From: Idiomarina loihiensis L2TR
Lineage (GTDB): Bacteria; Pseudomonadota; Gammaproteobacteria; Enterobacterales; Alteromonadaceae
DNA: 32,000 bases
Assembly (NCBI RefSeq): GCF_000008465.1
Contig: NC_006512.1
Coordinates: forward strand, 510,001 to 542,000
Reading direction: 5' to 3'
Of the stretch, positions 12,727-27,905 are shown one piece after another. Under the pieces are notes generated by a model. It was not told the origin of the DNA and made no database searches. It was given only the letters and a program-made list of their open reading frames with translations. A program made the position numbers and the translations under genes. The stretch's first letter is position 1, and each line of letters opens with the position of its first letter.

Positions 12727-13632
12727 TTATCCTTGCCCTTTGGTACGGGTTTTATGCGCTTTGGCGTTTTTCTCAAGGAAGGTAATAATTTGTGACGCAA
12801 CGTCTTTCTCGGTTGCCTGTTCAATACCTTCAAGCCCGGGTGACGAGTTCACTTCCATAACTAATGGCCCGTGGTTAGAGCGTAAGATATCCACACCCGC
12901 TACGTTAAGCCCCATGGTTTTAGCGGCTTTAACCGCCGTTGCGCGCTCAGCCGGTGTTAGTTTAACTAACGACGCGCTGCCGCCACGGTGCAGGTTTGAA
13001 CGAAATTCGCCGGCTTTTGCCTGGCGCTTCATTGCTGCAATAACTTTGTCGCCAATAACCAAACAGCGAATGTCCGCACCACCAGCTTCTTTAATGTATT
13101 CCTGCACCATAAAGTTGGAGTGCAGACCCATAAAGGCTTCAATAACACTTTCAGCGGCCTGACGGGTTTCGGCTAACACCACACCAATGCCCTGAGTACC
13201 TTCCAGCAATTTAATAACCAGCGGCGCGCCGCCAACCATGTCAATGAGGTCAGGAATGTCCTGTGGCTGACTGGCAAAACCAGTTGTCGGCAGGCCTATG
13301 CCTTTTCGCGACAGCAATTGCAGTGAGCGCAACTTGTCGCGGCTACGGGAAATGGCAACCGACTCATTTAACGGATAGCTGCCTATCATTTCAAACTGGC
13401 GCAAAACAGCGGTGCCATAAAACGTCACTGACGCTCCAATACGCGGAATAACACAGTCGTAGTGGGGCAGTTCCTTGCCGTGCTTATGGATGGATGATTC
13501 ACGCGCATTAATGTTCATGTAACATCTTAGCGGGTTAAGCACGTCAACTTCGTGGCCACGCTCTTCAGCGGCTTCCACTAAGCGGCGAGTTGAATAAAGT
13601 GAGGCGTTACGCGATAAAATCGCAATTCTCAT
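12727..13632 (-). CDS. rimK: Ribosomal protein S6 L-glutamate ligase RimK (ATP-grasp)
   Basis: 301 aa, near-collinear with E. coli RimK ([18 protein letters not shown]..., [56 protein letters not shown]). Confidence 0.92.
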
Positions 13633-14051
13633 TGCTCTTCTCCTAATAAGTGAGAGGCTTGTGGATCTACGATAAAGTTTCCGCGCATGGCTTGTCGACC
13701 CAATAACATACGGAACTTCATGGTGTCTCTATTAGTTAATGTCAGTTCGACCGCCTGGTCAAACTTACCCAGTTGTAATCGGGTTCGGATCACATAACGG
13801 GTTTCAGTATGACCGCCGGAGTCGGTTACTTCACGTTTATCAAATACCGGGGCTTCGCACACTTGTTCGCGCAAAGAGCCTTGCTCCGGGTGCATAAAAA
13901 TACGCAACCATTCCTGGCCGTCGCGTTCAAAAGGTTCAAGTTTGAACGCGTGTAAACACGAAGTTTTGGCGCCAGTATCGACTTTCATATGAATCAGATT
14001 AATATTGAGTTCAGGAAGTGCTCCCCACTCTTGCCAGCCAATTGTTGTCAT
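13629..14051 (-). CDS. Retropepsin-like 'ATP-dependent zinc protease' (DUF785; RimB-like)
   Basis: The start is taken at MTTIGWQEW (ATG 14051). The tracked start at 14108 is also possible. It carries the aspartyl-protease-like motif [13 protein letters not shown]. An ATGA overlap links it to rimK. Confidence 0.7.
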
Positions 14052-14119
14052 TGTGCTACCTTGTTGTAAATCTTGAATGCTTAATACAGTATTTTTGGTA
14101 AAACGCAATTTTTATTTAT

Positions 14120-14128
14120 GTAGCCTGA
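14120..14128 (+). repeat. Left part of a REP unit split by the IS (gtagcctga)
   Basis: Joined to 15511-15525 it gives gtagcctgacattcatgtcaggtg, which is identical to 22271-22294. Confidence 0.8.
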
Positions 14129-14132
14129 TGAG

Positions 14133-14145
14133 ATGGTCCCCTCCC
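14133..14145 (+). repeat. Left subterminal inverted repeat ATGGTCCCCTCCC
   Basis: Exact reverse complement of 15492-15504. Confidence 0.85.
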
Positions 14146-14213
14146 TCCTAAGCGGCATCGCAATGTGCCAATATAGAGGTTCAAGCTTCTATAGAACAGA
14201 GTGGAGAGGACCA

Positions 14214-15245
14214 ATGGCTATTGTAAACAGAATTGCCCTGGATTTGGCAAAGGATTTTATTCAGGTTTTGGCGCTGGATGAAAATGAGCAGGAAGTTTTT
14301 AATAAAAAACTGCGCAGCAATAAAGTGTTAGCGAAGCTGGCGACGCTGAGCCGTACGGATGACTGTGAAGTAGCGGTTGAGTCCTGCGGCATGAGTCATT
14401 ACTGGCGCCGCGAATGTGAAAAGCTGGGTTATAAAACGGTGGCGTTGCCACCGCGTTTCGTCAAAGCGTACCTGCAGGGTGAGAAGAACGATGCGAATGA
14501 CGCCCGGGCAATAGCCGAGGCGGCATCACGACCCAACCGTCAGACGGTCAGGCTGAAAAGCATTGAGCAGCAGGACTTAGCATTGATGGTCAATCAGCGG
14601 GAAGGCTTCGTGCAGACGAGAACGCAGTTCTCGAATAGGTTGCGGGGGCAACTGGCCGAATACGGCATTCTTTTACCGAAGCGAGTCGGTACGATATTAC
14701 AGAGAGTACCGGAGGTACTGGAAGACGACAGCAATGCGCTGACGCTTCAGTCACGGGACCTCATCAACCGGCTCTATCAGATGCTGCGAGCGGTGGATGA
14801 AGAAGTTAAAGCGCTGGATAAGCACTTAGCGACACAGGCCGAAAGGAATGAAGACAGTCAGCGGCTGATGACCCTGCCGGGTATCGGACCGATAACAGCG
14901 ACCTCGCTGCTGGCACTGATAGGTGATGTGAGTGAATTTAAACGCGGCCGCAACCTGTCGGAATACCTGGGACTGGTACCACGGCAAAACAGCAGTGGCG
15001 GTAAAGACCGTTTAGGCGGTATTACCAAAAAAGGGAACACCAAACTCAGGACACTGCTGGTGCATGGCGCCCGCTCGGCACTGCGGGTGGCACAACAGCG
15101 CCACGACAGGCTGAGCCTCTGGGCACAGGATGTCGCTAAACGCAGAGGCAACAACGTTGCAGCGGTGGCACTGGCTAACAAGCACGCCCGGATAATCTGG
15201 GCGATGTTAAAGAATAAAGAAGATTACCGGATGACTGCTGCTTAA
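14214..15245 (+). CDS. IS110-family transposase (DEDD RuvC-like N-domain plus Transposase_20 C-domain)
   Basis: The start is taken at MAIVNRIALDLAKDF, because the tracked 14133 start lies inside the terminal IR. Motifs: LDLAK, VESCG, NDANDA, LMTLPGIGPITA, VPRQNSSGG. Confidence 0.9.
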   Translation: MAIVNRIALDLAKDFIQVLALDENEQEVFNKKLRSNKVLAKLATLSRTDDCEVAVESCGMSHYWRRECEKLGYKTVALPPRFVKAYLQGEKNDANDARAIAEAASRPNRQTVRLKSIEQQDLALMVNQREGFVQTRTQFSNRLRGQLAEYGILLPKRVGTILQRVPEVLEDDSNALTLQSRDLINRLYQMLRAVDEEVKALDKHLATQAERNEDSQRLMTLPGIGPITATSLLALIGDVSEFKRGRNLSEYLGLVPRQNSSGGKDRLGGITKKGNTKLRTLLVHGARSALRVAQQRHDRLSLWAQDVAKRRGNNVAAVALANKHARIIWAMLKNKEDYRMTAA

Positions 15246-15324
15246 CAGCATTCAGTAAAAGAGCACAGCGAAGGTTCATTCCTTCCGGGAGTTGCAAACG
15301 TCAACAGGATGGTAAAATAGGGTA

Positions 15325-15475
15325 AACCGACGACAACTGAGACTGTTGAACGTCCGTACATAAAGTACGTTAGCCTGATAAGCCAGTTGTCGTGCGGAGT
15401 TCATCCAGGCCAGGTGCGCAAAGCGCGCACCATAAACAGGCCGTATATATGCGAGCGCCCCGACATTTACCACGA
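15325..15475 (+). ncRNA. Candidate bridge/guide RNA in the 3' non-coding flank of the IS
   Basis: A 10-bp stem (15330-15339 / 15384-15393) encloses an internal loop and a small hairpin (15355-15359 / 15365-15369). The loop strands contain tgaacgtc (15347-15354) and tagcctga (15371-15378), which match the REP target. A second hairpin lies at 15413-15431. No expression evidence. Confidence 0.35.
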
Positions 15476-15491
15476 GTTGCCGTTGCAAAAC

Positions 15492-15504
15492 GGGAGGGGA
15501 CCAT
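15492..15504 (+). repeat. Right subterminal inverted repeat GGGAGGGGACCAT
   Basis: Exact reverse complement of 14133-14145. Confidence 0.85.
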
Positions 15505-15510
15505 ATATGA

Positions 15511-15525
15511 CATTCATGTCAGGTG
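15511..15525 (+). repeat. Right part of the REP unit split by the IS (cattcatgtcaggtg)
   Basis: See 14120-14128. Confidence 0.8.
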
Positions 15526-15602
15526 TGATAGCTTTTTACGTAAGCAACGAAAACTGCTACTTTTGATAAAATAAGTAATAAGACTCAACTTAAGGATAGC
15601 CT

Positions 15603-16337
15603 ATGTCGGTTTGCCCATCTTGTGATTGTCGAAAACCTTTGGGGTTTGGCATTAAAATGGCCTTTCAGCCCATTGTTGATATTTCTGACAAAAGCGTATT
15701 CGCACACGAAGCCCTAGTGCGGGGAGAAAACGGCGAGGGCGCAGGCCGAATATTGGGGCAAGTGACAGAAGACAACAAGTATACCTTTGATCAAAGTTGC
15801 CGGGTTAAGGCAATAGAGACCGCGTCTCGTATCCAGCTACCGGGCAGTTTGAGTATTAATTTTATGCCTAACGCCATTTATGAACCGGAAACCTGTCTGG
15901 CAACCACCTTATCGACAGCCCGCAAAACCGGGTTCGACCGGAATAAAATTATTTTTGAGGTGACTGAACAGGAACAGGTTGTGAGTCAGGAGTTTCTGGT
16001 GGAAGTGTTTGAGGCTTATCGTAAAGAGGGGTTCAGAACCGCCATCGATGACTTTGGTGCCGGTTACGCCGGGTTGAATTTACTGGCTGACTTTCAGCCG
16101 GACATTCTGAAAATTGATATGAAGCTTATTCGTGACATTAACCAGAATAAGGTAAAGCAAACTCTGGTTCGTTCCATTCAGCAAATTTCAGAAGAGCTGG
16201 GGATTCAGCTTATCGCCGAAGGCATTGAAACCGAAGACGAGTATAAATACCTGCGCGACAGCGGCATTACCCTAATGCAAGGCTACTTCTTCCAAAAACC
16301 CATGCTGGAAGCCTTCCAGAACATTAATTTCCCGTAG
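15603..16337 (+). CDS. Standalone EAL-domain c-di-GMP phosphodiesterase (RimA-like by context)
   Basis: 244 aa with the catalytic set EALVRG, NFMPN, EVTEQE, DDFGAGYAGLN, KIDMKLIR, AEGIETEDE and QGYFFQKP. The TAG stop is the TAG of a REP GTAG head. Confidence 0.85.
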   Translation: MSVCPSCDCRKPLGFGIKMAFQPIVDISDKSVFAHEALVRGENGEGAGRILGQVTEDNKYTFDQSCRVKAIETASRIQLPGSLSINFMPNAIYEPETCLATTLSTARKTGFDRNKIIFEVTEQEQVVSQEFLVEVFEAYRKEGFRTAIDDFGAGYAGLNLLADFQPDILKIDMKLIRDINQNKVKQTLVRSIQQISEELGIQLIAEGIETEDEYKYLRDSGITLMQGYFFQKPMLEAFQNINFP

Positions 16338-16389
16338 CCTGACATTTATGTCAGGTGAGATATCGCTCCTGACGTGAACGTCAGGCTAC
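16334..16389. repeat. REP doublet: A-type forward (16334-16355) and G-type reverse (16368-16389)
   Basis: gtagcctgacatttatgtcagg tgagatatcgct cctgacgtgaacgtcaggctac. Confidence 0.85.
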
Positions 16390-17048
16390 GTACGCGATGC
16401 CTGTAACTTCTGCAAATGCGCTTTAAAATCGTAAATGTCGCGGTCCAGCGCATTGGAACTTACGTAAAGGTCGTAACCAAGTAATTCCCGCATTTGTTCC
16501 ATGCGCTTACCAAACACACCAATTAGCCCCTTATAAACAGTGCCATTAGGGCTAATGTAACTGTCTGGAATATCAAAATAAGGCGTATAATCCTCGCGCT
16601 CCGGTGCCTGATGCCGCAAAGCCATAGTCAGCAACTGACGTTGTTCGAACAATAAGGCAGAAGCAAGCCGGGGCGAAATATCATCCAGCACTTCTTCAAC
16701 CTGATACAACCGGAACCCCAGAAAGGGGGCGTCTTCAAGCTCCAGCACCCGGTTCACTCGGGGAACGTCGTAACGGATAATATTCTCCCAGCGAATCTGC
16801 CATTGTCCACGGCGGTGCAAATAACGAATGCCGTCTTCGGTGATCACCAGTGAAACCGGAGGCTCTATCACTTTACCAATGCCTAACAGCAAGAATATGC
16901 CGGACGTTGCGCCGAGCACCACAGTAACACCCACCGGAATATCGTCTCGCACCAGATGAAGGAAAACCAGTAGCGCAAACAACAATACCGCCAACCCACA
17001 AAAGGTTAATGCATTGCGCTTAGCCTGAGGACTGACATTAAATTGCAT
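16386..17048 (-). CDS. Hypothetical membrane protein (two N-terminal TM helices plus a soluble C-domain)
   Basis: The start is taken at MQFNVSPQAK (ATG 17048), preceded by AGGAGA. The tracked start at 17156 would overlap mutH by 74 nt. No family is recognised with confidence. Confidence 0.5.
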   Translation of the reverse strand: MQFNVSPQAKRNALTFCGLAVLLFALLVFLHLVRDDIPVGVTVVLGATSGIFLLLGIGKVIEPPVSLVITEDGIRYLHRRGQWQIRWENIIRYDVPRVNRVLELEDAPFLGFRLYQVEEVLDDISPRLASALLFEQRQLLTMALRHQAPEREDYTPYFDIPDSYISPNGTVYKGLIGVFGKRMEQMRELLGYDLYVSSNALDRDIYDFKAHLQKLQASRT

Positions 17049-26961: not shown

Positions 26962-27745
26962 AGAAGTACCGGATCAACGTTTTGGCGGCGTAAGCCGTGT
27001 ATACGGACAAGCGTCGTTAACGCAGTTTCAGCAGTTACATATTGTGGTCGCCGGGCTTGGCGGCGTTGGCTCATGGGCGGTGGAAGCTCTGGCGCGTACA
27101 GGTATTGGTAAGCTAACGCTAATCGACCTGGACGATGTGTGTGTCACTAACATTAACCGACAGCTACCGGCTACCGATGACACCATAGGCCAGCTTAAGA
27201 GCGAAGTACTGGCGCAGCGGGTGAAAAGCATTAACCCTAACTGCGAAGTGCGGGTAATTGACGACTATTTGCTGCCGGAAAACTTTGAAGAGTACTTAAC
27301 CGGCGCCGATGCCGTGCTCGATGCCATAGACAGCGTTAATACTAAGTCTGCTTTGGTGGCTTGGTGCAAGCGTCGCAAGTTACGCATAGTGGTGTGCGGC
27401 GGAGCAGGTGGGCAGATAGACCCTGGTATGATCCGCGTCGGTGACCTTGCCAAAGCCAAACAAGACCCGTTGTTGGCTAAGGTACGCTCACAACTGCGCC
27501 GCGACTACGGCTTTTCCAAGAACCCCAAACGTAAATGGGGCGTTGACTGTGTCTATTCCGAAGAGCAGCTGCGCTATCCAATAATTTCCGGTGAGCAAGA
27601 AGGCGAAGTCACGCTGCAGAAGCCCGGTTCGGGCTCCATGCGCATGGACTGCAGCTCCGGCTTTGGCGCCGCCATGGTGGTCACTTGCAGCTTCGCCATG
27701 CAGGCCACGGCTATCCTACTGAAGCGGTTATCACACCTGACATAA
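26954..27745 (+). CDS. tcdA: tRNA threonylcarbamoyladenosine dehydratase TcdA (CsdL), E1-like
   Basis: RFGGVSRVYG, VAGLGGVGSWAVEALARTGIGKLTLIDLDDVCVTNINRQ, GGAGGQIDP, MDCSSGFGAA; collinear with E. coli TcdA. The start is ATG 26954, or possibly GTG 26939. The last codons and the TAA stop lie in a REP. Confidence 0.88.
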   Translation: MSEEVPDQRFGGVSRVYGQASLTQFQQLHIVVAGLGGVGSWAVEALARTGIGKLTLIDLDDVCVTNINRQLPATDDTIGQLKSEVLAQRVKSINPNCEVRVIDDYLLPENFEEYLTGADAVLDAIDSVNTKSALVAWCKRRKLRIVVCGGAGGQIDPGMIRVGDLAKAKQDPLLAKVRSQLRRDYGFSKNPKRKWGVDCVYSEEQLRYPIISGEQEGEVTLQKPGSGSMRMDCSSGFGAAMVVTCSFAMQATAILLKRLSHLT

Positions 27746-27905
27746 ATGTCAGGCTACGCAGGGCTTGTAGCCTGACGTTTACGTCAGGGACGATGTTGAA
27801 CACAACGTCGTCATCTAATTATTTGGGCAGTATTTTAAGTGGCTATATCTCACCTGACATAAATGTCAGGCTACAGGGTGCACGTAGCCTGATGTTTACA
27901 TCAGG
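27736..27905. repeat. REP cluster: single reverse unit (27736-27757), REPIN-like doublet F (27767-27874), single forward CCTGATG-variant unit (27884-27905)
   Basis: Read directly. The units match the REP consensus GTAGCCTGAC(A/G)TT(T/C)A(T/C)GTCAGG. Confidence 0.85.

What the first reader, a model, noticed from the sequence alone, without database searches (positions are those of the whole stretch)
15330..15393. The 3' flank of the IS1111-type element folds into a stem-loop whose two internal-loop strands match the two halves of its own REP target, making it a candidate REP-programmed bridge RNA
A 10-bp stem (acgacaactg 15330-15339 / cagttgtcgt 15384-15393) encloses a 5-bp hairpin (cgtac 15355-15359 / gtacg 15365-15369). 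That hairpin is flanked by two unpaired strands.
- The 3' strand contains tagcctga (15371-15378). This is identical to the left target flank including the junction GA (14121-14128), and the next base t also matches the first IS base.
- The 5' strand contains tgaacgtc (15347-15354). Its complement gacgttca matches the junction GA plus the right flank (gacattca, 15509-15516) at 7 of 8 positions, and the complementary sequence tgaacgtc occurs in the G-type REP at 16375-16382 (so gacgttca is on its other strand).

Both matches overlap the same GA at the insertion point. IS110-family recombinases are known to use a bispecific bridge RNA encoded in a non-coding end, whose target-binding loop pairs with opposite strands on either side of a core dinucleotide. 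That geometry is what is seen here. A weaker donor-type match is atatatg, at 15445-15451 and at the right IS end 15503-15509. If real, this is a guide RNA naturally programmed against a host REP family.
Basis: partly seen in the sequence, partly recalled or inferred. Interest (0 to 1): 0.75.

Follow-up and report, generated by a model that had tools for sequence, protein, structure and literature searches.

The report
IS1111-type bridge RNA aimed at REPs
The stem-loop downstream of this Idiomarina insertion sequence's transposase gene is almost certainly the target-reading half of its guide ("bridge" or "seek") RNA, which aims the element at a host repeat; it is a well-supported new example of a mechanism published in 2024, not a new mechanism.

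Summary
Both loop-to-flank matches, in the right order and spacing, arise by chance in 2 of 20,000 shuffles.

- **Structure:** in 15 relatives (down to 47% transposase identity) the outer stem, the inner hairpin and a second stem-loop are kept by compensatory changes. 93.8% of cells pair, against about 30% when partners are slid, and 18 pairs change on both sides.
- **Guides:** all four unpaired strands track their own DNA.
  - The 3' strand equals the left flank in 19 of 21 copies, across 4 variants.
  - The 5' strand complements the right flank. Cognate pairs score 7.5 of 9, non-cognate 5.2, and 0 of 200,000 permutations reach the observed total.
  - In the second loop one strand equals the right IS end (29 of 30 copies) and the other complements the left IS end (3 variants).

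One correction: the crossover dinucleotide is TG (14126-27 and 15508-09), not GA.

Bridge or seek RNAs in the 3' end of IS1111-group elements, including REP-targeting ISPa11, were described in 2024. This is therefore a new member of a known kind. Expression, processing and transposase binding were not testable here.

The parts
14121..14127 (+). Left target half, TAGCC, plus the left copy of the crossover core TG (14126-14127). It is part of a split REP, GTAGCC-TG-ACATTCATGTCAGG.
   Evidence: all 11 left flanks in this lineage read GTAGCCTG; 10 intact REPs of this family lie in the window.
14128..15509 (+). IS1111-group insertion sequence, 1382 bp, counted here with the right copy of the core. 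It is equivalently 14126-15507 if the core is assigned to the left end, which gives a 7-bp left extension TGATGAG.
   Evidence: About 90% identical copies occur in Idiomarina abyssalis, I. zobellii and I. piscisalsi, with the same ends in different flanks.
14128..14145 (+). Left end: ATGAG (14128-14132, the right-donor half read by the RDG), followed by the left subterminal inverted repeat ATGGTCCCCTCCC (14133-14145).
   Evidence: It is the inverted repeat of 15492-15504.
14214..15245 (+). DEDD transposase/recombinase, 343 aa.
   Evidence: PF01548 (8e-20) and PF02371 (1.8e-26); homologues are 341-343 aa. The GLVPRQNSSG motif is present (translation).
15311..15316 (+). GGUAAA, the tentative 5' half of a basal helix P0. 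It lies within the invariant GATGGTAAA motif at 15308-15316.
   Evidence: Support is weak: 87.8% of cells pair and only one sequence compensates.
15327..15397 (+). It has a closing CCG/CGG (15327-29 / 15395-97), the outer stem 15330-39 / 15384-93, three further pairs (G15341-C15383, C15343-G15382, U15344-A15381) and the inner hairpin 15355-59 / 15365-69.
   Evidence: Searches show compensatory changes in 10 of 16 outer-helix pairs and 3 of 5 inner pairs; the covariance model scores 150.7 bits over 15324-15458.
15346..15354 (+). Right target guide (RTG), UUGAACGUC. It is complementary to the top strand from core G15509 into the right flank (GACATTCA, with one A.C mismatch). It matches G-type REPs perfectly.
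   Evidence: There are 9 RTG variants in 20 distinct RTG/site combinations. Cognate pairs score 7.5 of 9, non-cognate 5.2, and 0 of 200,000 permutations reach the observed total.
15371..15379 (+). Left target guide (LTG), UAGCCUG (15371-77). It is identical to the left target plus the core, so it would pair with the bottom strand. It is followed by an invariant AU (15378-79) that equals the first two IS bases.
   Evidence: 19 of 21 copies match perfectly across 4 LTG variants (TAGCCTG, TAGCTTG, TAACTTG, TAGGTCG). More distant relatives also match: L027 7 of 7, L040 7 of 7, L042 7 of 7.
15398..15452 (+). Donor-binding stem-loop. It contains the RDG strand, a GGCC/GGCC stem (15408-11 / 15439-42), an apical hairpin (15413-19 / 15425-31) and the LDG strand.
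   Evidence: All 5 apical-helix pairs show changes on both sides. The GGCC stem pairs in 100% of cells but is nearly invariant.
15400..15405 (+). Right donor guide (RDG), UUCAUC. It is complementary to core G plus ATGAG, the start of the left IS end (5 Watson-Crick pairs and 1 G.U).
   Evidence: The guide follows the left end: ATGAG with UUCAUC, ATGTAA with UUACAUC (L027, 8 consecutive pairs), and ATGGG with CCCAU (L028, L038, L042).
15445..15451 (+). Left donor guide (LDG), AUAUAUG. It is identical to the right IS end plus the core (15503-15509).
   Evidence: 29 of 30 copies are identical. ATATACG occurs in both places in the CG-core sub-lineage. L028 has ATATACG in both places (7 of 7). L040 has ATACAAG in the loop against ATACAAA at its right end (6 of 7). 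The untrained L013 has ACACACG in both places (7 of 7).
15466..15471 (+). UUUACC, the tentative 3' half of basal helix P0.
   Evidence: weak.
15483..15509 (+). Right end. It holds the -35-like TTGCAA (15483-88), the right subterminal inverted repeat GGGAGGGGACCAT (15492-15504), ATA, and the right copy of core TG (15508-09). Joined to the left end it gives TTGCAA-N17-TATGAT, a circle-junction promoter.
   Evidence: TTGCAA is nearly invariant in relatives. Junction promoters of this kind are documented for ISEc11 (PMC11187229 section 7).
15510..15517 (+). Right target half, ACATTCAT, the rest of the split REP.
16375..16388 (-). An unoccupied REP that matches both target guides perfectly (TAGCCTG + ACGTTCA).

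Best explanation
Nucleotides 15327-15397 are the target-binding loop of the bridge RNA (seekRNA) of an intact IS1111-group insertion sequence. Nucleotides 15398-15452 are its donor-binding loop.

Mechanism, inferred from the experimentally studied relatives ISEc11, ISPa11, ISKpn4 and IS621:
1. The RNA is co-transcribed with the transposase mRNA on the + strand. The main promoter is probably TTGCAA-N17-TATGAT, which forms only when the IS ends are joined in the excised circle.
2. The RNA is then trimmed and bound by the DEDD recombinase.
3. [quoted passage not shown]
4. UUGAACGUC (15346-54) pairs with the top strand from the core G into the REP's right part.
5. [quoted passage not shown]
6. UUCAUC (15400-05) pairs with the top strand from the core G into the left IS end.
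7. The recombinase exchanges strands at TG. The element is thereby inserted in one orientation into REPs of the family GTAGCC-TG-AC(R)TT(Y)A.

What is shown here: the conserved structure, the four-way covariation between guides and DNA, the site-specific oriented insertions, and the intact recombinase.

What is inferred: transcription, processing, protein binding and the chemistry.
For: - **Element:** it is an IS110-family, IS1111-group IS. It has PF01548 and PF02371 and 13-bp subterminal inverted repeats. Its non-coding region is 264 nt downstream of tnp against 86 nt upstream.
- **Structure:** 30 proposed pairs were counted on 15 sequences. 93.8% of cells pair, against 28-39% when partners are slid. 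18 pairs change on both sides, and 0 of 500 shuffles reach the observed value. RNAalifold independently predicts the same helices.
- **Covariance model:** it finds exactly one hit per IS copy, always on the tnp strand and downstream of tnp. It also finds an untrained, 74% GC relative, L013, at 40 bits and E = 4e-10.
- **LTG:** it equals the left flank in 19 of 21 copies across 4 variants.
- **LDG:** it equals the right IS end in 29 of 30 copies, including a coordinated TG to CG core switch in LTG, LDG and both junctions.
- **RTG:** 9 variants track REP subtypes. Examples are GAUAGCGUC with GACGTTATT, GAUAGCCUC with GAGGTTATT, and ACAGGGCGC with GCGTCCTG. The permutation count is 0 of 200,000 overall and 281 of 200,000 within the window's own clade.
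- **RDG:** it follows the left-end variants ATGAG, ATGTAA and ATGGG.
- **Order and size:** the strand order matches IS1111 seekRNAs. The sizes, 71 nt for the target loop and 135 nt for both loops, fit the published short (70-100 nt) and long (145-170 nt) forms.
- **Chance:** both target matches together occur in 2 of 20,000 shuffles.
Against: - No expression data exist for this element.
- No sigma-70-type promoter was found in the non-coding region. This is expected, however, if the RNA comes from the tnp transcript.
- Rfam has no matching family.
- The covariance model does not detect the 3' region of an ISShdy1-type element at 42% aa identity (L041). Direct homology to an experimentally validated seekRNA is therefore not shown.
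- The window's own RTG has an A.C mismatch to the site it occupies.
- Folding energy does not discriminate the strands. G.U evidence for the + strand is only suggestive.
- The RTG and RDG reach only the second core base in this lineage, unlike IS621.
- For ISEc11 the short RNA without a donor loop was sufficient for transposition. The donor-loop function in IS1111 elements is therefore not experimentally settled.
Confidence: 0.87

Rival explanations
1. Only the target-binding stem-loop acts as a guide (a short seekRNA). [quoted passage not shown]
For: For ISEc11 the 82-nt short seekRNA alone supported transposition even better than the long form. The role of the long RNA is stated to be unknown. 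The IS1111 group has long subterminal repeats that could be read by the protein.
Against: The LDG equals the right IS end in 29 of 30 copies and switches with it from ATATATG to ATATACG. The same relation holds in L028 (7 of 7), L040 (6 of 7) and the untrained L013 (7 of 7). The RDG follows three different left-end sequences. The second stem-loop is conserved by compensatory changes. Durrant et al. predict donor loops for IS1111 elements.
Confidence: 0.1
2. The matches act at the DNA level. The 3' region would carry a captured REP fragment or a protein-binding or hairpin site (for example an mRNA-stabilising or terminating hairpin) with no guide role.
For: REPs are abundant (10 in the window) and could be picked up. 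The minus strand folds as well as the plus strand.
Against: - The two REP halves are not contiguous or in REP order. One is sense, the other antisense, and they are separated by an unrelated hairpin.
- They change in step with the flanks in lineages that use different REP families.
- Several cognate guide/site pairs are complete only if G.T wobbles are counted, for example L045, L043 and L005 at 9 of 9.
- No T-run follows the stem, and no terminator was called there.
Confidence: 0.02
3. The loop-to-flank matches are coincidental, in a stable but unrelated hairpin.
For: The matches are short (7-9 nt).
Against: Both matches occur together in 2 of 20,000 shuffles. Covariation is seen in four separate guide segments across more than 30 copies.
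Confidence: 0.01

Closest known systems
ISPa11 seekRNA / bridge RNA (IS1111 family, Pseudomonas aeruginosa)
   Same: It is an IS1111-group element with subterminal inverted repeats and its RNA in the 3' non-coding region. It inserts at a fixed position in a host REP. The RNA co-purifies with the transposase and carries a top-strand match 5' of a bottom-strand match (PMC11187229). Durrant et al. drew target and donor loops for it.
   Different: The host, the REP family and the guide sequences differ. The transposase relationship was not measured here. The Idiomarina RNA has no experimental support.
ISEc11 seekRNA (IS1111 family, E. coli/Shigella)
   Same: The layout is the same: a 7-bp left extension, a junction promoter formed in the circle, an essential 3' non-coding region, short (82 nt) and long (154 nt) RNAs, and natural reprogramming among relatives (ISXne4).
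   Different: The target is not a REP (GTGAAAATACTG). The related ISShdy1-type transposase is only 42.5% identical. The covariance model built here does not detect that element's 3' region.
IS621 bridge RNA (IS110 group, E. coli)
   Same: It is a DEDD recombinase guided by a bispecific RNA with two internal loops. LTG and LDG pair with the bottom strand, and RTG and RDG with the top strand, overlapping at a core dinucleotide. Its natural target is a REP.
   Different: In IS621 the RNA lies in the 5' (left) end and the order of the guide strands is reversed. All four guides cover both core bases (CT). In the window, the RTG and RDG reach only the second base of a TG core. The handshake positions next to the RTG described for IS621 have no counterpart here, because those bases are in the inner hairpin. 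IS621 has only 2-3 bp subterminal repeats.
ISPpu9 / ISPpu10 (IS110 group, Pseudomonas putida)
   Same: They are REP-targeting IS110-family elements with bridge RNAs and circular intermediates.
   Different: They belong to the IS110 group, with no long subterminal repeats and a bridge RNA upstream of tnp (one search lists ISPpu10 as LE). ISPpu9 has its own strong promoter and extra small RNAs.

Membership tests
IS110 family, IS1111 group insertion sequence | DEDD (RuvC-like) N-terminal domain plus the Transposase_20 C-terminal domain, about 330-350 aa | tested here: met
   PF01548 at 8e-20 and PF02371 at 1.8e-26. The protein is 343 aa. The GL-P----SG motif is present as GLVPRQNSSG.
IS110 family, IS1111 group insertion sequence | Subterminal inverted repeats of 7-17 bp with short terminal extensions | tested here: met
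   ATGGTCCCCTCCC at 14133-45 and GGGAGGGGACCAT at 15492-504. The extensions are TGATGAG on the left and ATA on the right.
IS110 family, IS1111 group insertion sequence | Longer non-coding region downstream of tnp | tested here: met
   264 nt downstream (15246-15509) against 86 nt upstream (14128-14213).
IS110 family, IS1111 group insertion sequence | Site- and orientation-specific insertion without target duplication | tested here: met
   All copies lie at the same position and orientation in REPs. The flanks rejoin to an intact REP sharing only the core TG.
Bridge RNA / seekRNA | Structured non-coding RNA in the non-coding end, conserved by covariation | tested here: met
Bridge RNA / seekRNA | [quoted passage not shown] | tested here: met
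   The overlap is the core G. Both core bases are covered only by the LTG.
Bridge RNA / seekRNA | A second loop with the analogous pairing to the donor, that is the joined IS ends | tested here: met
   LDG matches in 29 of 30 copies. RDG follows 3 left-end variants. This is by sequence covariation only.
Bridge RNA / seekRNA | IS1111-type strand order, with the top-strand match 5' of the bottom-strand match | tested here: met
   RTG at 15346-54 lies 5' of LTG at 15371-77. Compare.
Bridge RNA / seekRNA | The RNA is expressed, bound by the recombinase and required for transposition | not testable with these tools
   There are no transcript or protein data. No promoter was found in the non-coding region. 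A junction promoter is inferred from sequence only.
Bridge RNA / seekRNA | Detectable homology to an experimentally validated bridge RNA or seekRNA, or to a curated RNA family | tested here: inconclusive
   Rfam 15 gives no hit at E <= 1. Model R1 does not hit the ISShdy1-type locus L041. The other validated elements were not available.

The most novel reading that the evidence does not exclude
This IS1111 lineage may use a pairing register different from IS621.
- The right-hand guides (RTG, RDG) read only the second core base.
- An invariant AU after the LTG core matches the first two bases of the left IS end.
- In a sister lineage (L028-L038) the left and right copies of the core differ systematically (CA against CG), with the RDG pairing to the A.

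If real, strand exchange in IS1111 elements would be staggered or checked differently from the IS621 model. The coordinated covariation of the donor loop would also give natural genetic evidence that the IS1111 'long seekRNA' has a donor-binding role, which the experimental paper left open.
Probability: 0.2. Interest if true: 0.5.

Novelty: new member of a known kind. Interest (0 to 1): 0.3.

Why it matters
The result confirms that reading sequence alone can recover an RNA-guided recombination system, and it assigns the guides of a previously uncharacterised marine IS.

The practical value is a natural series of closely related elements, about 90% identical in DNA. It contains 9 right-target guides, 4 left-target guides and a coordinated core switch, each matched to a REP subtype. 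That is a ready-made specificity and mismatch-tolerance data set for IS1111-type recombinases, which have been studied far less than IS621.

It also adds comparative support for a donor-binding loop in IS1111 RNAs. It does not change the known picture of how such elements work.

Tried and rejected
- **Rfam scan** of 13500-17000 at E <= 1 found nothing.
- **Megablast** of the IS against E. coli genomes and plasmids found no match. tblastn against plasmids gave at best 47% identity, so no named close relative was found.
- **ISfinder peptide search.** I searched the ISfinder protein FASTA in the Siddiquee supplement, and the Durrant supplements, for this transposase or any Idiomarina IS. No match was found, so the element could not be given an ISfinder name.
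- **Promoter and terminator scan** found no + strand promoter or terminator in the 3' region. A TTGCAA-N15-TAAAAT candidate at 15292-15318 was rejected as weak: the spacer is 15 nt and the -10 is not conserved.
- **Long-range helix.** The full-NCR MFE pairs 15273-15316 with 15466-15500. Only its GGUAAA/UUUACC part was tested, and it has weak support. The ATGG/CCAU pairs are invariant and uninformative.
- **Closing stem for the donor loop.** No convincing conserved stem was found directly below the donor loop. The alternatives (GUCG/CGAC, GUUGGG/CCCAAC) overlap the target-loop stem and are not kept in L028.
- **Handshake guides.** IS621-type handshake guides next to the RTG were considered and rejected, because those bases form the inner hairpin.
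- **Strand assignment from G.U pairs.** In the helices, 7-13 G.U cells stand against 6 A.C cells. In the guide/target pairs, 10 wobbles stand against 4 A.C mismatches. This is suggestive only.
- **ISShdy1 by eye.** The ends of the ISShdy1 locus L041 could not be placed with confidence, so no manual comparison with ISEc11 was made.

Full report
**Observation**

I read 13900-16600.
- the 10-bp outer stem, 15330-39 / 15384-93
- the 5-bp inner hairpin, 15355-59 / 15365-69
- tagcctga at 15371-78, identical to 14121-28
- tgaacgtc at 15347-54, whose complement matches 15509-16 at 7 of 8 positions
- the second copy of tgaacgtc at 16375-82
- atatatg at 15445-51 and at 15503-09

The MFE fold of 15324-15458 reproduces both helices (-47 kcal/mol, z = -3.3). 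I shuffled the 3' non-coding region 20,000 times, preserving dinucleotides. A sense match to the left flank together with an antisense match to the right flank, in the right order and within 40 nt, occurred twice.

**Context**

- The ORF at 14214-15245 is a 343-aa IS110-family DEDD transposase with PF01548 and PF02371.
- It is flanked by 13-bp subterminal inverted repeats at 14133-45 and 15492-504.
- The non-coding region is 264 nt downstream of tnp and 86 nt upstream. This is the IS1111-group layout described in PMC11187229 and PMC11208160.
- The element splits a REP, GTAGCC-TG-ACATTCATGTCAGG. Ten intact REPs of this family lie in the window, where none is expected by chance.
- The host is an Idiomarina. 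About 90% identical copies occur in I. abyssalis, I. zobellii and I. piscisalsi.
- No near match exists in the E. coli or plasmid collections. The best plasmid relative is 47% identical at the protein level.

**Structure**

I aligned the 3' region of 15 distinct relatives. These were window-type copies; elements whose transposases are 88%, 83%, 81% and 52% identical; and elements at about 47-49% identity from metagenomes, a Methylophaga and an Alteromonas plasmid.

It also predicts a second stem-loop: a GGCC/GGCC stem with an apical hairpin.

Counting 30 proposed pairs gave these results:
- 93.8% of cells form standard pairs, against 28-39% when the partners are slid by 1-3 columns.
- 18 pairs change on both sides.
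- 0 of 500 shuffles reach the observed values.

A covariance model of 15324-15458 finds exactly one hit per IS copy, always downstream of tnp on the tnp strand. It also finds a 74% GC Acetobacteraceae relative that was not in the training set, at 40 bits and E = 4e-10. It does not detect an ISShdy1-type element at 42% aa identity. Rfam has no matching family.

**Guides and their DNA**

A metagenome scan for a conserved 23-mer added more copies. This gave 32 copies in which the guides could be parsed.

| Guide | Window coordinates | Relation to DNA | Result |
|---|---|---|---|
| LTG (3' strand, target loop) | 15371-77 | identical to the left flank plus core | 19 of 21 copies, 4 variants |
| RTG (5' strand, target loop) | 15346-54 | complementary to core G plus the right flank | cognate 7.5 of 9, non-cognate 5.2 |
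| LDG (3' strand, donor loop) | 15445-51 | identical to the right IS end plus core | 29 of 30 copies |
| RDG (5' strand, donor loop) | 15400-05 | complementary to core G plus the left IS end | follows 3 left-end variants |

1. **LTG.**
   - The four variants are TAGCCTG, TAGCTTG, TAACTTG and TAGGTCG.
   - Three more distant elements also match their own left flanks at 7 of 7: TAGCCCG in L027, TAGGGAA in L040 and AAAAGCA in L042.
   - L028 (TAAGGCG in the guide, TAAGGCA at the flank) and L038 (TAGCCCG, TAGCCCA) match at 6 of 7. They differ at the second core base.
2. **RTG.**
   - It has 9 variants in 20 distinct guide/site combinations.
   - No permutation out of 200,000 reaches the observed total.
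   - Within the window's own clade the count is 281 of 200,000.
   - Clear compensations are GAUAGCGUC with GACGTTATT, against GAUAGCCUC with GAGGTTATT.
   - A second compensation is ACAAGGCGC with GCGCCTT, against ACAGGGCGC with GCGTCCTG.
3. **LDG.**
   - It becomes ATATACG in both places in a sub-lineage.
   - In that same sub-lineage the LTG and both junctions also switch from TG to CG.
   - In L028 the guide equals the IS end (ATATACG) at 7 of 7.
   - In the untrained L013 the guide equals the IS end (ACACACG) at 7 of 7.
   - In L040 the match is 6 of 7 (ATACAAG against ATACAAA).
4. **RDG.**
   - UUCAUC is complementary to the core G plus ATGAG.
   - Where the left end is ATGTAA the strand is UUACAUC (L027, 8 consecutive pairs).
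   - Where the left end is ATGGG the strand is CCCAU (L028, L038, L042).

**Correction of the core**

In the 83%-identity lineage the junctions read GTAGCT-TG-ATGAG on the left and ATATA-TG-CGCC on the right. Only TG is shared between them. The TG to CG switch confirms a two-base core.

In the window the core copies are 14126-27 and 15508-09.

**Mechanism**

The geometry is the one published for IS1111 seekRNAs. The top-strand match lies 5' of the bottom-strand match, and they overlap at the insertion point. It also fits bridge RNAs in general, where LTG and LDG pair with the bottom strand and RTG and RDG with the top strand.

The sizes fit as well. The target loop is 71 nt and both loops together are 135 nt. 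The published forms are 70-100 nt (short) and 145-170 nt (long).

No promoter is predicted inside the 3' region, as was reported for ISEc11. Joining the ends creates TTGCAA-N17-TATGAT. The integrated copy reads TATGAC instead. I therefore infer co-transcription with tnp from a circle-junction promoter, followed by processing.

**Caveats**

- Expression, processing, protein binding and requirement for transposition are inferred from relatives, not shown.
- The window's own RTG has one A.C mismatch to the site it occupies. A perfect unoccupied site lies 860 bp away, at 16375-88 on the minus strand.
- Folding energy does not distinguish the strands, and G.U evidence is only suggestive.
- The strand assignment rests on co-orientation with tnp, on the junction promoter, and on agreement with the known pairing convention.
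- A basal helix, GGUAAA 15311-16 with UUUACC 15466-71, is possible but weakly supported.
- For ISEc11 the short RNA alone sufficed for transposition. The functional need for the donor loop in IS1111 elements therefore remains to be tested, although the covariation here argues for it.

**Comparison and novelty**

Bridge RNAs were predicted in the right end of 93% of IS1111 elements. seekRNAs were demonstrated for ISEc11, ISKpn4, ISPst6 and the REP-targeting ISPa11. IS621, ISPpu9 and ISPpu10 are REP-targeting members of the IS110 group. Natural reprogramming among relatives is also documented.

The finding is therefore a correct, well-supported identification of a new member of a known kind. Three details differ from the IS621 model:
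- the right-hand guides only partly cover the core
- there is no IS621-type handshake position
- a sister lineage shows a CA/CG asymmetry between its core copies

These details are the only parts that might hold something new.

Noticed in passing
window 15483-15509 joined to 14128-14133: TTGCAA, a 17-nt spacer and TATG+AT give a near-consensus sigma-70 promoter (TTGCAA-N17-TATGAT). It forms only when the right end is joined to the left end. In the chromosome the hexamer is TATGAC. TTGCAA is nearly invariant in all relatives.
   Followed up: partly
window 15308-15316: GATGGTAAA in the 3' non-coding region is invariant down to 47% transposase identity. It repeats the GATGG of the left-end region (14131-14135). 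It may form a basal helix with UUUACC 15466-71 or be a protein site. Covariation support is weak.
   Followed up: partly
L028-L037 and L038 (left junctions, about 60 nt upstream of tnp; right ends about 285 nt downstream): In this 48%-identity lineage every left junction carries CA, while the LTG and LDG specify CG. The right junction is CG in L028-L037 and TG in L038. The RDG pairs with the A. So the left core copy differs systematically from the core specified by LTG and LDG. This is unexplained.
   Followed up: partly
window 15378-15379 and 14128-14129: The AU directly after the LTG core equals the first two bases (AT) of the left IS end in every relative. It could stabilise the left-junction product or substrate. 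It cannot be tested by covariation because neither side varies.
   Followed up: no
window 16375-16388 (minus strand): An unoccupied REP matches the window element's LTG and RTG perfectly, 860 bp from the IS. The occupied site has one A.C mismatch.
   Followed up: yes
L001, L002/L009, L003 (Idiomarina abyssalis KMM 227): One genome carries at least three RTG variants of the same IS (UUAAACGUC, GUGAAUGUC, GAUAACGUC). This suggests co-resident sublineages tuned to different REP loop subtypes.
   Followed up: partly
L020 and L022 (left junctions): These two copies have LTG UAACUUG but sit after TAGCTTG. This is one mismatch, so single mismatches in the left guide are tolerated or arose after insertion.
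   Followed up: no
L013 2200-3240 (Acetobacteraceae MAG): This is a 5'-truncated, frameshifted relative. It still keeps a recognisable bridge RNA (40 bits) and an LDG equal to its right end (ACACACG).
   Followed up: partly
window 15292-15318: TTGCAA-N15-TAAAAT would start transcription near 15325, the 5' edge of the RNA model hit. However, the spacer is short and the -10 is TAAACA in relatives, so it is probably not a conserved promoter.
   Followed up: partly
window 16334-16389, 22271-22326, 27736-27788: The REPs mostly occur as inverted pairs about 12-30 bp apart (REPIN-like doublets). The two members are often of different loop subtypes (A-type and G-type).
   Followed up: no
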